This document shows, piece by piece, positions 19,785 to 29,448 of a stretch of DNA of 64,000 nt. Source of the DNA: Rhodospirillaceae bacterium. GTDB lineage: Bacteria; Pseudomonadota; Alphaproteobacteria; Reyranellales; Reyranellaceae. Each line of letters opens with the position of its first letter. The stretch's first letter is position 1. Below the pieces are notes generated by a model that saw only the letters and a program-made list of their open reading frames with translations, made no database searches and was not told the DNA's origin. Both the position numbers and the translations under genes were made by a program. The stretch lies in NCBI GenBank assembly GCA_009772935.1, contig WOUR01000015.1:36970-100969 (forward strand), written 5' to 3'.

Positions 19785-20639
19785 TTAGGGCGTCGGCCCG
19801 CTCCAAGACTCAAGCGCATCCCACTTCGCCTTGCGCTGCTCGCCGCGAGGCTTCTTGAAGTCGTGGCCGTACGCGGCCGTGTCGAACGACCCGTAGGTCG
19901 GGTTGGGCAACATCAGCCACTGCTTGCCCCAATAGGGCATGCCGGCCTCGAACGCCTTCACCCGTTCGGCCTCGCTGCTGCGGTAGCGATCGTCGAAGTC
20001 GCCCAGATTGTCGCCGATGTTCAGCAGGATGCGATAATCCTTCGCGATCGTGGCGCGGCGCGTGCTCTTGGCGCCGGTCCAGTCCGGCTTCTCGCCCTGC
20101 ATCAGGAACGTGTCGACATTGCCGCCCAGGGGAAATCCGAGCTTCTCCATGTTGGCCCGCGTGTCCTTCTCGGTCTCGATGCCCCGGTTGGTGACGTAGA
20201 AGACCTTCACGCCCTTCGACTCGGCGTACTTGGTGAACTCGACGGCGCCGGGAATGGCCGCCGAGATCTGGGCGGCGCAGAACAGGTTCCAGCTCTTCGT
20301 GCTGAAGCTCTGGTCTGCCCGCATCAGCCAAACCTGATATTTCGAGTTGTCGAGCACGGTTTCGTCGACGTCGAGCACCACGGCCGGCGGCAGGTTCTGG
20401 AAATCGCCCGTCTGCTCGCCCGGGGCGGCCGTCCAGCTCCTGTCGGCCAGCGCCTCGTCGAGACGCAGGCGCGCCAGCGCATACACCGTCAAAGCATTGG
20501 CCTTGTACTCGACGGCGCGCTGCATCCACAGATTGGCGAGCAGCAGGTCGTGCGCCGGCGGGACATCCTGGGCGCGGACCGCGCCACCGGAGAGGATGGC
20601 GAGAAGAAGACCGAGAAGCAAAGTCTTGCGGGCGGTCAT
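19785..20639 (-). CDS. class C acid phosphatase / 5'-nucleotidase, e(P4) family (HAD)
   Basis: DVDETVLDNS, FYVTNR, IGDNLGDF, LPNPTYG; N-terminal signal peptide. Confidence 0.9.
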   Translation of the reverse strand: MTARKTLLLGLLLAILSGGAVRAQDVPPAHDLLLANLWMQRAVEYKANALTVYALARLRLDEALADRSWTAAPGEQTGDFQNLPPAVVLDVDETVLDNSKYQVWLMRADQSFSTKSWNLFCAAQISAAIPGAVEFTKYAESKGVKVFYVTNRGIETEKDTRANMEKLGFPLGGNVDTFLMQGEKPDWTGAKSTRRATIAKDYRILLNIGDNLGDFDDRYRSSEAERVKAFEAGMPYWGKQWLMLPNPTYGSFDTAAYGHDFKKPRGEQRKAKWDALESWSGPTP

Positions 20640-21595
20640 GGCGATATCCTCTCCAGCAGCTGCCGCCTGGTTGCCTCGTCGGCAAAGGAGGCCTCGATCG
20701 TCGTGCGGACGATGCCGCGCAGTTGTCCCTCGTCGAGCCCGGCGAGATCGTATTCGGTGCCGAGTGTCGTGTGGAAGAAGGGTGGATCGTCGGAGTTGAG
20801 CGTGACTCGCACACCCGCATCGATCAACCGATGCAGCGGATGCACGGCCCGATCGGGATAGAGGCCGAGCGCGACGTTGCTGCCTGGACAGACCTCGAGG
20901 ACGATGCCACGCCGCGCCAGTTCCTCCATCAAGGCCGGATCGTCCGCCGAGCGCACGCCGTGGCCGATACGGGTCACCGGCAGGTCACGGATCGCGGCCC
21001 AGACGCTCTCCGGTCCCACGACTTCGCCGGCATGGACGGTGCAGCCATAGCCATTCTCATGGGCGAGGCGGTAGGCGGGTGCGAAGTCGATGGGCGCGAA
21101 CCTGGCTTCGTCGCCGCCCATGCCGAAGCCCACGACATAGGGATGCGGCTCGGCCAGCATAGCACGGACCATCGCCTCGGCCCGCTCCGGCCCGAGATGG
21201 CGGATGCAGATGATGATGATGCGGCCTTCGATACCGAACGCGCGGCGGGCGTCGTCGATGCCCTCAGCCAGCGCCTCCAGCCAATGGGCGTAGGAGATAC
21301 CGAGCGCGGCCGGCCGCTCGGGCGAACAGAACATCTCGACATAGACCGCACCCTCCCGCGCCGCGCCGGCGAGATAGGTGTAGATCACATCGCGGAAGTC
21401 GCGCGGCGTCTTCAGCGCCGTGCAGACGCGGTCGTAGGCGTCGAGGAAGCTCCAGAAATTCGTCCAGGCGTAGTGGCCCTTTGCATCCAACAGGTTCGGA
21501 GGCAGCACCAGGCCATTTCGTTCAGCCAGTTCGAGGGCCAGCTTGGGCGGGATCGAGCCTTCGAGATGGCAATGGATTTCGGCCTTGGGAATCAC
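20636..21595 (-). CDS. add: adenosine/adenine deaminase
   Basis: KAEIHCHLEGS, HAGE, RIGHG, NSDDP; GTG start overlapping the upstream stop. Confidence 0.92.
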   Translation of the reverse strand: MIPKAEIHCHLEGSIPPKLALELAERNGLVLPPNLLDAKGHYAWTNFWSFLDAYDRVCTALKTPRDFRDVIYTYLAGAAREGAVYVEMFCSPERPAALGISYAHWLEALAEGIDDARRAFGIEGRIIIICIRHLGPERAEAMVRAMLAEPHPYVVGFGMGGDEARFAPIDFAPAYRLAHENGYGCTVHAGEVVGPESVWAAIRDLPVTRIGHGVRSADDPALMEELARRGIVLEVCPGSNVALGLYPDRAVHPLHRLIDAGVRVTLNSDDPPFFHTTLGTEYDLAGLDEGQLRGIVRTTIEASFADEATRRQLLERISP

Positions 21596-28441: not shown

Positions 28442-29448
28442 GAATTGTTGCTCATATAGTCGTGGACGACGATCTGGCCCGAGATGATGCCGGCCTTCGC
28501 GGCCTCGACCGCGGCCTTCATCTGCGGCGTGATGAGTTTTTCGTTGTCCTTGTCGAGCGCCCAGTCGACGCCGCCTTCCTTGAGACCCAGCACCTGCACG
28601 CCCCCCTTCCACTCGTTGTTCCGGGCAGCCTTGAAGCTGTTGTAGGCCGCAAGATCGACGCGCTTCAGCATCGAGGTCAGCATGTTGCCGGGATGCAGGT
28701 GATTCTGGTTGGAGTCGACGCCGATCCCGAGCTTGCCGCGATCCTTGGTCGCCTGGAGGATGCCGAGACCGGTGCTGCCGGCGGCGGCATAGACGACGTC
28801 GACCCCGCGATCGAACTGTCCCTTGGCCAGTTCCGCGCCACGGCCCGGATCGTTCCAGGCGGCGGGGGTCGTGCCGGTCATGTTGGTGATCAGCTCGGCG
28901 TTGGGACTGGCGTATTTGATGCCCTGCTCGAACCCGCACTGGAAGCGGCGTACCAGAGGGATGTCCATGCCGCCCACGAACCCGATCTTGCCGGTCTTCG
29001 AGGCCATTGCCGCCAGCACGCCGACGAGGAAGGAGCCTTCCTGCTCCTTGAACACGACCGACTGGACGTTGGGCAGGTCGACGACGCTGTCGATGACGGT
29101 GAAATGGATGTTGGGGAATTCCCGGGCGACCTTGTCGAGGGCGACCGCCTGCGCGAAGCCGACGGCGATGATCGGATCCTGGCCACGCTGGGCGAAGCGC
29201 CGCAGCGCCTGCTCGAACTGGGTCTCGTTGCTGGGCTCGAACTCGGCAACGGCGATGTTCGTCTCCTTCTTGAAGCGCTCGGCGCCCTGCCAGACACCCT
29301 CATTGAACGACTTGTCGAACTTGCCGCCGGTGCTGAAGACGATGGCCGGCTTGACGGCGACGGTCTGTGCCTGCGCGAGAGCACCGAGACCGACGACGGC
29401 CAGCACGGAGATCACGGAGCCAACCCAGCGTTTCATTGCCATTCCCAT
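28429..29448 (-). CDS. BMP family nucleoside ABC transporter substrate-binding protein
   Basis: GGKFDKSFNEG, FKEQEGSFLVG, IGVDSNQ, TSMLKRVD; start may be a few codons later. Confidence 0.92.
   Translation of the reverse strand: MGMAMKRWVGSVISVLAVVGLGALAQAQTVAVKPAIVFSTGGKFDKSFNEGVWQGAERFKKETNIAVAEFEPSNETQFEQALRRFAQRGQDPIIAVGFAQAVALDKVAREFPNIHFTVIDSVVDLPNVQSVVFKEQEGSFLVGVLAAMASKTGKIGFVGGMDIPLVRRFQCGFEQGIKYASPNAELITNMTGTTPAAWNDPGRGAELAKGQFDRGVDVVYAAAGSTGLGILQATKDRGKLGIGVDSNQNHLHPGNMLTSMLKRVDLAAYNSFKAARNNEWKGGVQVLGLKEGGVDWALDKDNEKLITPQMKAAVEAAKAGIISGQIVVHDYMSNNSCKS

What the first reader, a model, noticed from the sequence alone, without database searches (positions are those of the whole stretch)
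19785..29448. PHYHD1-like dioxygenase translationally coupled inside a nucleoside uptake/salvage operon
Seen: order BMP, ABC x3, cdd, punA, deoA, phyH, add, e(P4) phosphatase; the dioxygenase overlaps both neighbours by GTGA. deoC, upp and deoB, which I recall in the rhizobial version of this operon, are absent here. QSMYLFK...HQD.TFL.TEP matches human PHYHD1-type proteins. I recall, unverified, that such enzymes demethylate 2'-O-methyl nucleosides. The context supports salvage of modified RNA nucleosides, with a secreted 5'-nucleotidase feeding the transporter.
Basis: partly seen in the sequence, partly recalled or inferred. Interest (0 to 1): 0.6.

Follow-up and report, generated by a model that had tools for sequence, protein, structure and literature searches.

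The report
Nucleoside demethylase gene in uptake operon
A freshwater Reyranella bacterium carries a close counterpart of human PHYHD1, an enzyme shown in 2025 to strip the 2'-O-methyl group from free RNA nucleosides, welded into its ten-gene nucleoside uptake and breakdown operon, and this linkage recurs across many bacteria, which fits the published activity and gives it a bacterial setting but is not a new kind of system.

Summary
Window 29448-19785 (minus strand) holds ten genes with no gap above 1 nt. They encode a BMP/PnrA-type binding protein, an ABC ATPase, two permeases, cdd, punA, deoA, a PhyH-family dioxygenase, add and a signal-peptide e(P4)-like class C phosphatase. GTGA overlaps join the dioxygenase to both neighbours.

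The dioxygenase is a PHYHD1 orthologue: E 5e-46 to human PHYHD1, model TM 0.87 to 3OBZ. It keeps the iron/2OG residues and the docking-inferred ribose contacts.

That paper tested no bacterial PHYHD1-type enzyme and analysed no gene neighbourhoods.

- Of 120 orthologue loci, 53 sit in such an operon and 8 beside other nucleoside genes, in at least five gene orders. One gammaproteobacterial version uses a NupC transporter.
- In 401 alphaproteobacterial genomes, 31 of 33 holders also have the BMP orthologue, against 48 of 368 non-holders.

Most likely function (about 0.8): the enzyme unblocks imported 2'-O-methyl nucleosides so that the deaminases and phosphorylases can act on them. No assay exists.

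This scan noted the same arrangement earlier on other genomes (e1-5245839, e1-5316735). Verdict: a new member of a known kind, of moderate interest.

The parts
28429..29448 (-). Periplasmic BMP/PnrA-type nucleoside-binding protein; has a signal peptide and no lipobox
   Evidence: PF02608, E 3.5e-66. Nearest solved structures include T. pallidum TmpC/PnrA at 7.8e-42, Borrelia BmpD and pneumococcal PnrA-type lipoproteins. Sequence.
26906..28441 (-). ABC transporter ATPase with two ATP-binding cassettes. GTG start overlaps the bmp stop by 13 nt.
   Evidence: PF00005 matched in two stretches. NCBIfam matches run along the full length of sugar/BMP-type ATPases. Start read.
25812..26909 (-). ABC permease 1
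   Evidence: PF02653, E 2.4e-35. 4-nt overlap with the ATPase gene.
24890..25810 (-). ABC permease 2
   Evidence: PF02653, E 2.9e-37. 1-nt gap.
24493..24888 (-). Cytidine deaminase (cdd)
   Evidence: TIGR01354, 135 bits, above cut-off.
23705..24496 (-). Purine-nucleoside phosphorylase (punA)
   Evidence: TIGR01698, 306.3 bits against a cut-off of 302.6; NF006054, 319 bits.
22380..23714 (-). Thymidine/pyrimidine-nucleoside phosphorylase (deoA)
   Evidence: TIGR02643, 652.9 bits against a cut-off of 570.7.
21592..22383 (-). PHYHD1-type Fe(II)/2-oxoglutarate dioxygenase, 263 aa; candidate 2'-O-methyl nucleoside demethylase. GTGA overlaps with both neighbours.
   Evidence: PF05721, E 4.3e-39. Human PHYHD1 E 5e-46, next PDB hit 1.6e-10. 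AF2 model pLDDT 92, TM 0.87 to 3OBZ. Invariant K81, Q118, H135, D137, H221, R232, W251; H84 nearly invariant.
20636..21595 (-). Adenosine deaminase (add). The GTG start lies inside the dioxygenase stop (GTGA), with a GAGGA Shine-Dalgarno sequence upstream.
   Evidence: TIGR01430, 328 bits, above cut-off. The Pfam match begins 2 residues after this start. Upstream sequence.
19785..20639 (-). Exported class C (e(P4)-like) acid phosphatase / nucleotidase; last gene of the operon
   Evidence: PF03767, E 1.8e-40. TIGR01533, 200.9 bits, below the 216 cut-off. H. influenzae e(P4) structures at E 1e-35. Signal peptide, VLDVDETVLDN and GDNLGDF motifs, no Cys.
29563..31008 (+). Divergently transcribed dihydropyrimidinase. 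It acts in reductive pyrimidine-base breakdown, downstream of the operon's products.
   Evidence: NF009941, 742 bits against a cut-off of 647; TIGR02033, 546 bits.

Best explanation
This is a ten-gene, translationally coupled nucleoside scavenging and catabolism operon of a Reyranella species. Its eighth gene encodes a bacterial orthologue of eukaryotic PHYHD1.

Proposed flow:
1. The exported e(P4)-like phosphatase removes phosphate from extracellular or periplasmic nucleotides derived from RNA and DNA.
2. The BMP/PnrA-type binding protein and the ABC importer bring the nucleosides in.
3. The PHYHD1 orthologue uses Fe(II), 2-oxoglutarate and O2 to hydroxylate the methyl of 2'-O-methyl nucleosides. 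This releases formaldehyde and yields the plain ribonucleoside.
4. Add and Cdd deaminate, and PunA and DeoA phosphorolyse.
5. The bases go to salvage (upp lies elsewhere in the genome) or to degradation (dihydropyrimidinase next door).

The demethylase thus unblocks a fraction of RNA debris that ordinary nucleoside enzymes cannot use.

Shown here: the gene content, the coupling, the orthology, the intact active site, the conserved linkage and the co-occurrence.
Inferred: the substrate of this particular enzyme, uptake of methylated nucleosides by this transporter, and dephosphorylation of methylated nucleotides by this phosphatase.
For: 1. Orthology. Human PHYHD1 is by far the best solved relative (E 5e-46 against 1.6e-10 for the next). 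The model superposes on 3OBZ with TM 0.87, against 0.71 or less for every non-PHYHD1 chain. Identity to a chytrid PHYHD1 is 41% over the full length. It is the only such gene among 17 PhyH paralogues in the genome.

2. Active site. The equivalents of the HxD...H triad and the 2OG arginine are H135, D137, H221 and R232. The equivalents of the docking-inferred ribose contacts K102, H105, Q139 and W277 are K81, H84, Q118 and W251. The stacking Phe is F140. All are present, and all but H84 and F140 are invariant in 33 bacterial orthologues; H84 is nearly invariant.

3. Published activity. All tested proteins with this signature (animal, fungal, plant, giant-virus) and the more distant bacterial FJS type demethylate 2'-O-methyl nucleosides. 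They are inactive on 5'-phosphates and on RNA, and E. coli cannot use 2'-O-methylcytidine without such an enzyme (PMC12709175).

4. Linkage. Of 120 orthologue loci, 53 lie in a BMP-ABC/cdd/pnp/pynp operon and 8 beside other nucleoside genes: IU nucleoside hydrolase, AMP nucleosidase, phosphoribosyltransferase, DeoC, a pyrimidine-nucleoside phosphorylase (some only because the contig ends there). There are at least five gene orders. In gammaproteobacterial MAGs the orthologue sits with a NupC transporter, PyNP and IU hydrolase instead.

5. Co-occurrence. 31 of 33 holders have the BMP orthologue, against 48 of 368 non-holders.

6. Coupling. GTGA/ATGA overlaps run throughout, and every gene shows coding GC3.
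Against: - No bacterial PHYHD1-type enzyme has been assayed. The bacterial enzymes tested in the paper are all of the FJS type, which has a WHQDSGY motif that is absent here.
- The human purine-contact residue S154 is Gly here.
- 47 of 120 orthologue loci show no nucleoside neighbour. Examples are Pyrinomonadaceae, Niveispirillum and 6 sampled gamma/beta genomes.
- Nothing shows that this BMP protein binds 2'-O-methyl nucleosides, or that the phosphatase accepts their nucleotides.
- The linkage counts come from related genomes and are not independent events: 8 state changes on the tree.
- This genome lacks DeoB and DeoC, so the pentose branch of the pathway is incomplete as read.
Confidence: 0.8

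Rival explanations
1. The enzyme acts on nucleosides but carries out a different oxidation. Candidates are 2'-hydroxylation of deoxynucleosides (the chemistry of pyrimidine-deoxynucleoside 2'-dioxygenase, EC 1.14.11.3), removal of other 2'-O-alkyl groups, or demethylation of base-methylated nucleosides.
For: The nucleoside context is firm, but the substrate is only inferred. This genome has thymidine phosphorylase but no DeoC or DeoB, so converting deoxynucleosides to ribonucleosides would be useful to it. FJS and PHYHD1 tolerate varied bases and an allyl group. S154 is replaced by Gly.
Against: The ribose contacts and the iron site match those of enzymes shown to attack the 2'-O-methyl carbon. 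Many operons hold the orthologue together with deoB and deoC, so it does not stand in for them. The paper reports no activity on base methyl groups: N6- and N4-methyl groups stay in the products (Table 1). The EC 1.14.11.3 idea rests on my own knowledge and was not tested.
Confidence: 0.12
2. The dioxygenase has nothing to do with nucleosides (for example it is a lipid or other small-molecule hydroxylase, as its 'phytanoyl-CoA dioxygenase' label suggests) and merely rides in the operon.
For: Database names say phytanoyl-CoA dioxygenase/hydroxylase. 47 of 120 loci show no nucleoside neighbour.
Against: Linkage holds across many families, several gene orders and two transporter types, and co-occurrence is strong. 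FJS made only a trace of hydroxylated phytanoyl-CoA, and human PHYH is inactive on methyl nucleosides, so the two subfamilies differ. The window protein matches human PHYH only at E 1e-8, against 5e-46 for PHYHD1.
Confidence: 0.04
3. The enzyme works on RNA or oligonucleotides (an RNA 2'-O-methyl eraser), not on free nucleosides.
For: Recombinant FJS co-purified with nucleic acid. RNA binding by human PHYHD1 is cited in the paper's discussion.
Against: FJS and PHYHD1 were inactive on nucleotides and on a methylated miRNA duplex, and the zebrafish knockout changed free nucleosides but not RNA. Here the gene sits between enzymes that act on free nucleosides, downstream of a nucleoside importer.
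Confidence: 0.03

Closest known systems
Eukaryotic PHYHD1 (human isoform A, PDB 2OPW/3OBZ), a 2'-O-methyl nucleoside demethylase (Stonkus et al., NAR 2025, PMC12709175)
   Same: Same subfamily signature ([12 protein letters not shown][IL]FK, HQD.[ST]FL.TEP, NWLQ). About 36-41% identity over the full length. Same fold (TM 0.87). Same iron/2OG ligands and the same docking-inferred ribose contacts, including Phe at the stacking position.
   Different: Bacterial and 263 aa long. It lacks an 11-residue loop before NKIGH that most orthologues have. S154 is replaced by Gly. It is encoded inside a nucleoside uptake/catabolism operon. It has not been assayed.
FJS and FJS-type bacterial PhyH proteins (Acidisoma, Sphingomonas colocasiae, Poribacteria) from the same paper
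   Same: Bacterial PF05721 enzymes shown to demethylate free 2'-O-methyl nucleosides, so the activity exists in bacteria.
   Different: A different subfamily: WHQDSGY motif, Tyr at the stacking position, C-terminal helices. No such motif occurs anywhere in this genome. No genomic context was reported for them.
BMP/PnrA-type nucleoside ABC transporter operons (T. pallidum PnrA/TmpC, Borrelia BmpD, pneumococcal PnrA) and alphaproteobacterial bmp-ABC-cdd-pnp-deoA(-deoB-deoC) clusters
   Same: The binding protein, ATPase and two permeases are followed by cdd, punA and deoA. 79 of 401 sampled Alphaproteobacteria have the BMP orthologue.
   Different: Only 31 of those 79 genomes also carry the PHYHD1 orthologue, so it is an optional add-on. 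The Reyranella version has lost deoB and deoC and ends with add and an exported phosphatase.
RK9NH 2'-O-methyluridine nucleoside hydrolase with a DERA-like aldolase (metagenomic; cited in PMC12709175)
   Same: The other described bacterial route for catabolism of 2'-O-methyl nucleosides. Some PHYHD1 orthologues sit beside IU-type nucleoside hydrolases.
   Different: It cleaves the glycosidic bond hydrolytically and does not remove the methyl group. No nucleoside hydrolase was found in this genome with the query used.
Haemophilus influenzae lipoprotein e(P4), a class C acid phosphatase / NMN 5'-nucleotidase
   Same: Family match (PF03767; E 1e-35 to the e(P4) structures), the bipartite aspartate motifs, and an exported location.
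   Different: It has no lipobox cysteine and scores below the NCBIfam equivalog cut-off. Here it is the last gene of a nucleoside operon.

Membership tests
PHYHD1-type subfamily of PhyH (PF05721) Fe(II)/2OG dioxygenases | PF05721 domain over the whole protein | tested here: met
   E 4.3e-39; residues 7-234 match profile positions 1-213 of 213.
PHYHD1-type subfamily of PhyH (PF05721) Fe(II)/2OG dioxygenases | Closer to PHYHD1 than to PHYH or any other solved PhyH enzyme, in both sequence and fold | tested here: met
   Sequence: E 5e-46 against 1.6e-10 (EvdO2) and 1.1e-8 (PHYH). Foldseek: 3OBZ E 6e-28, TM 0.87, against the next chain at 1.7e-15, TM 0.66.
PHYHD1-type subfamily of PhyH (PF05721) Fe(II)/2OG dioxygenases | HxD...H iron triad and the 2OG-binding arginine 11 residues after the distal His | tested here: met
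   H135, D137, H221 and R232 align with human H156, D158, H246 and R257. All four are invariant in 33 orthologues.
PHYHD1-type subfamily of PhyH (PF05721) Fe(II)/2OG dioxygenases | Residues docked against the ribose (K102, H105, Q139, W277) and the stacking F161 | tested here: met
   K81, H84, Q118, W251 and F140. The purine-contact residue S154 is Gly here.
PHYHD1-type subfamily of PhyH (PF05721) Fe(II)/2OG dioxygenases | 2-oxoglutarate-dependent demethylation of free 2'-O-methyl nucleosides with formaldehyde release | not testable with these tools
   This needs an enzyme assay. It has been shown only for other members.
FJS-type bacterial 2'-O-methyl nucleoside demethylases | WHQDSGY core motif and Tyr at the base-stacking position | tested here: not met
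   The window protein reads GWHQDATF. No WHQD[SA]GY motif occurs in any frame of the genome.
BMP/PnrA-type nucleoside ABC importer | PF02608 binding protein followed by a double-cassette ATPase and two PF02653 permeases | tested here: met
   PnrA/TmpC E 7.8e-42.
BMP/PnrA-type nucleoside ABC importer | Binds and imports nucleosides, including 2'-O-methylated ones | not testable with these tools
   Ligand specificity is inferred only from the family and the operon partners.
e(P4) / class C acid phosphatase (TIGR01533) | Bipartite aspartate motifs of class C phosphatases | tested here: met
   VLDVDETVLDNSKY and LLNIGDNLGDF are present. The motif definition comes from my own knowledge of the family.
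e(P4) / class C acid phosphatase (TIGR01533) | Lipoprotein signal (lipobox Cys) and a score above the equivalog cut-off | tested here: not met
   There is no Cys in the signal peptide. The score is 200.9 bits against a cut-off of 216.05.

The most novel reading that the evidence does not exclude
The nucleoside operons that carry PHYHD1 form a dedicated bacterial pathway for feeding on 2'-O-methylated RNA debris. In this reading the exported nucleotidase and the BMP (or NupC/TonB) uptake systems are co-adapted to methylated substrates. This widespread, mostly alphaproteobacterial gene would also be the source of eukaryotic PHYHD1, so the human enzyme's role in nucleoside turnover would be inherited from a bacterial scavenging pathway.
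Probability: 0.3. Interest if true: 0.55.

Novelty: new member of a known kind. Interest (0 to 1): 0.45.

Why it matters
The 2025 paper established the chemistry. It left open what the enzyme is for in bacteria, and it tested no bacterial protein of the human type.

The operon gives a direct, testable physiological setting:
- import of RNA-derived nucleosides
- removal of the 2'-O-methyl block
- ordinary deamination and phosphorolysis after that

The survey names cultured carriers in which a knockout can be made, Stappia stellulata DSM 5886 and Pelagibius marinus NBU2595. It shows the gene is an optional add-on to a common transporter operon.

It also corrects the standing annotations 'phytanoyl-CoA dioxygenase' and 'LegD1 effector' for thousands of bacterial genes.

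It does not reveal a new mechanism.

Tried and rejected
1. Expression evidence. The run search listed no sure RNA holder of the operon. Three 'RNA-Seq' metagenome rows are only guesses at RNA. I did not lay the reads, because contigs cannot show transcripts.

2. Promoter and terminator scans across the operon gave nothing above the shuffles.

3. The antisense 408-aa ORF (21481-22707, + strand) has GC1/2/3 of 0.72/0.57/0.72, unlike the coding pattern of the ten genes. It recurs opposite the gene in other GC-rich loci as a shadow frame, so I rejected it as a gene.

4. Long relatives examined as possible informative fusions. P0174 (PYNP_C + PhyH) is most likely a frameshifted read-through of adjacent genes, not a true fusion. 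The others are dioxygenase-dioxygenase fusions.

5. Conserved neighbours of the unlinked orthologues in Acidobacteriota and Niveispirillum are a chromate transporter, GNAT, LexA, chorismate synthase and FabI-like genes. They say nothing about function.

6. Literature searches for a description of this operon context found only PMC12709175, which has no neighbourhood analysis.

7. NCBI organism labels of several MAG loci disagree with GTDB placement. L094, labelled 'Flavobacteriaceae', is the same record as the alphaproteobacterial G397. I therefore did not count phyla from the labels.
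Full report
**What is in the sequence.**

The region 29448-19785 on the minus strand holds ten genes. Pfam and NCBIfam identify them as follows:
- a BMP/PnrA-like binding protein
- a double-cassette ABC ATPase
- two permeases
- cytidine deaminase
- purine-nucleoside phosphorylase (TIGR01698, above cut-off)
- thymidine phosphorylase (TIGR02643, above cut-off)
- a PhyH-family dioxygenase (PF05721, E 4e-39; no NCBIfam model)
- adenosine deaminase (TIGR01430)
- a class C acid phosphatase of the e(P4) type

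I read the junctions directly. deoA ends ...TTGTGA, with the dioxygenase GTG inside it. The dioxygenase ends ...GCGTGA, with the add GTG inside it. add and the phosphatase share ATGA. After I fixed the ATPase start at GTG 28441, every junction is either an overlap of 4-13 nt or a 1-nt gap. All ten frames show GC3 of 0.80-0.88 with GC2 of 0.41-0.52. The long antisense ORF does not show this pattern. The operon is bounded by a divergent dihydropyrimidinase and a convergent MalK-type gene.

The phosphatase and the binding protein both carry Sec-type signal peptides without a lipobox cysteine. The phosphatase has both class C aspartate motifs. Its nearest solved relatives are the H. influenzae e(P4) structures. 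The binding protein's nearest relatives include the nucleoside receptors TmpC/PnrA and BmpD.

**The organism.**

The closest proteins are named Reyranella sp.. The window lies in a 6.0-Mb assembly that is 98.45% complete. Near-identical DNA occurs in groundwater, aquatic, wastewater and plastic-surface metagenomes.

**What the dioxygenase is.**

Human PHYHD1 is the best solved relative by a wide margin: E 5e-46, against 1.6e-10 for the next hit and 1.1e-8 for PHYH itself. An AlphaFold model (pLDDT 92) superposes on 3OBZ and 2OPW with TM 0.87-0.88. All non-PHYHD1 chains give TM 0.71 or less.

The alignment places:
- H135, D137, H221 and R232 on human H156, D158, H246 and R257
- K81, H84, Q118 and W251 on K102, H105, Q139 and W277
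- F140 on F161

Only S154 differs; it is Gly here. These positions are invariant in 33 bacterial orthologues, except H84 (nearly invariant) and F140 (Phe or Tyr). Identity to a chytrid PHYHD1 is 41% over the full length.

The genome has 17 PF05721 hits but only one of this type.

**What is known.**

Stonkus et al. (NAR, Dec 2025, PMC12709175) found a metagenomic dioxygenase, FJS, by selecting for growth of a pyrimidine auxotroph on 2'-O-methylcytidine, a compound their E. coli strain cannot use. They showed that FJS, human, mouse, zebrafish, fly, fungal, plant and giant-virus PHYHD1-type proteins, and three FJS-type bacterial proteins, all demethylate free 2'-O-methyl nucleosides with formaldehyde release. 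These enzymes do not act on 5'-mono- or triphosphates, on 3'-O-methyl nucleosides or on a methylated miRNA. Human PHYH is inactive. A zebrafish knockout accumulates free methylated nucleosides.

The sequences in their supplement show that every bacterial enzyme tested is of the FJS type (WHQDSGY). The eukaryotic and viral enzymes carry the QSMYIFK...HQD.SFLYTEP...NW signature that the window protein shares. The paper contains no gene-neighbourhood analysis, and my other searches found none elsewhere.

The window protein belongs to the well-tested signature group, but as an untested bacterial branch.

**Is the linkage conserved?**

In an even sample of 401 alphaproteobacterial genomes, 33 have one orthologue each, all at E 1e-68 or better. 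I fetched 20 kb around the 32 others and around 8 more from a phylum-level sample. I also fetched the 80 best of 595 confirmed relatives from the species-level genome collection. I scanned all of them with the operon's proteins and with deoB, deoC, aldehyde dehydrogenase, AMP nucleosidase, IU hydrolase, a HAD hydrolase and a phosphoribosyltransferase taken from those loci.

Result for 120 loci:
- 53 in a bmp-ABC-cdd-pnp-pynp operon on the same strand
- 8 beside other nucleoside genes
- 47 with none
- 12 on contigs too short to judge

Gene orders differ:
- pynp-PHYHD1-add-phosphatase in Reyranella and kin
- pynp-deoB-PHYHD1(-add)(-HAD) in Dongia, Kiloniellaceae, Stappia stellulata DSM 5886 and others
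- deoC-pynp-PHYHD1-HAD in Pelagibius
- AMP nucleosidase-PHYHD1-bmp-ABC... in one genus
- ABC-PHYHD1...add in one MAG
- PHYHD1 overlapping an IU nucleoside hydrolase in two 27-29% GC marine genomes
- a phosphoribosyltransferase 39 nt or less upstream (tblastn hit boundaries) in another genome

In two gammaproteobacterial MAGs the orthologue heads a cluster of pyrimidine-nucleoside phosphorylase, a NupC-type transporter and an IU hydrolase. That cluster is flanked by a TonB receptor and PreA/PreT.

On a FastTree of the 121 proteins, one 59-member clade is almost entirely linked. Eight linked/unlinked changes are needed overall. This tree is quick and many forks are weak, so I use it only to show that the counts are not one event.

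As a rough guide, a random gene should lie within 10 kb of one given 10-kb operon in well under 1% of 4-5 Mb genomes. That figure is my estimate, not a computed result.

**Co-occurrence.**

In the same 401 genomes, 79 have the BMP orthologue. 31 of the 33 PHYHD1 holders are among them, against 48 of 368 non-holders (odds ratio about 100). Related genomes are not independent, so the p-value overstates the case. Still, the pattern also holds for the roughly dozen holders in which the two genes lie apart. The dioxygenase is therefore an optional companion of this importer.

**Mechanism proposed.**

1. The exported phosphatase dephosphorylates nucleotides outside the cytoplasm.
2. The BMP-ABC system imports the nucleosides.
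3. The PHYHD1 orthologue removes 2'-O-methyl groups.
4. Add and Cdd deaminate, and PunA and DeoA phosphorolyse.
5. The bases go to Upp (on another contig) or to the adjacent dihydropyrimidinase.

The published inactivity on nucleotides makes a phosphatase step before the demethylase logical. Steps 1, 2 and 3 are inferences for this organism.

**Weak points.**

- There is no assay of any bacterial PHYHD1-type protein.
- There is no evidence on the ligand range of the transporter or the phosphatase.
- Many orthologues have uninformative neighbours.
- This genome has no DeoB or DeoC by family models or by tblastn. The pentose-phosphate branch is therefore unexplained.

That last gap prompts one rival: the enzyme might also hydroxylate C2' of deoxynucleosides. 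I rate this low, because many operons carry the orthologue together with deoB and deoC.

**Comparison and verdict.**

The protein meets every sequence and fold criterion of the PHYHD1 type that I could test, and it fails the FJS-type motif. The operon is the familiar alphaproteobacterial nucleoside uptake/catabolism cluster with an added demethylase.

This scan recorded the same arrangement earlier in other genomes: a Pseudovibrio cluster, a bmp...cdd-deoA-cupin-phyH-add run, and URC operons with a PHYHD1-type gene and a BMP protein. Those are unchecked notes that agree with what I found here.

The enzyme chemistry is known. What is new is the bacterial operon context and its breadth, which I did not find published. 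I class this as a new member of a known kind, with moderate interest.

Noticed in passing
window 29563-31008 (+): A dihydropyrimidinase (NF009941, 742 bits) is transcribed divergently from bmp, 114 bp away. Reductive pyrimidine-base breakdown therefore sits next to the nucleoside operon. In the gammaproteobacterial locus L119, PreA/PreT lie beside the PHYHD1 cluster.
   Followed up: partly
whole genome G000: No DeoB (TIGR01696) or DeoC (TIGR00126) was found, although purine-nucleoside and thymidine phosphorylases are present. The fate of (deoxy)ribose-1-phosphate in this Reyranella is unexplained. upp is on contig C109.
   Followed up: partly
L119:7562-17418 (also L127): Gammaproteobacterial MAGs carry a divergent TonB-dependent receptor, then the PHYHD1 orthologue, a pyrimidine-nucleoside phosphorylase, a NupC-type transporter and an IU nucleoside hydrolase, then convergent PreA/PreT. 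This is the same enzyme linked to a different nucleoside uptake system.
   Followed up: partly
L035:7865-10313 and L036:5288-7467: In one alphaproteobacterial genus an aldehyde dehydrogenase lies directly upstream of the PHYHD1 orthologue on the same strand, with no other nucleoside gene nearby. Aldehyde dehydrogenases also sit with deoC in several of the nucleoside operons. A link to formaldehyde or acetaldehyde disposal is possible.
   Followed up: no
proteins P0126, P0185, P0189, P0248: Long relatives exist. One has two PhyH domains in tandem (600 aa). Three have a PhyH domain fused to a second 2OG oxygenase (DIOX_N + 2OG-FeII_Oxy). Their origin and function were not examined.
   Followed up: no
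protein cluster P0109: An orthologue 73% identical to the window protein is named 'Dot/Icm type IV secretion system effector LegD1' in a soil metagenome record. That name looks like label transfer from Legionella to a housekeeping-type enzyme.
   Followed up: no
whole genome G000: The genome holds 17 PF05721 (PhyH) hits on many contigs, only one of them PHYHD1-type. The substrates of the other paralogues are unknown.
   Followed up: no
window 31211-34193 (-): An isochorismatase-family gene, a short-chain dehydrogenase and an amidase lie in a row beyond the dihydropyrimidinase. A role in pyrimidine or amide catabolism is possible but was not examined.
   Followed up: no
L094 versus L015: A record labelled 'uncultured Flavobacteriaceae' is identical to the contig of an alphaproteobacterial genome of the GTDB sample. 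Other MAG labels (Asaia bogorensis, Heliomicrobium, Hydrogenophaga, Rhizobium sp. Q54) also sit oddly in the protein tree, so NCBI labels of these MAGs are unreliable.
   Followed up: partly
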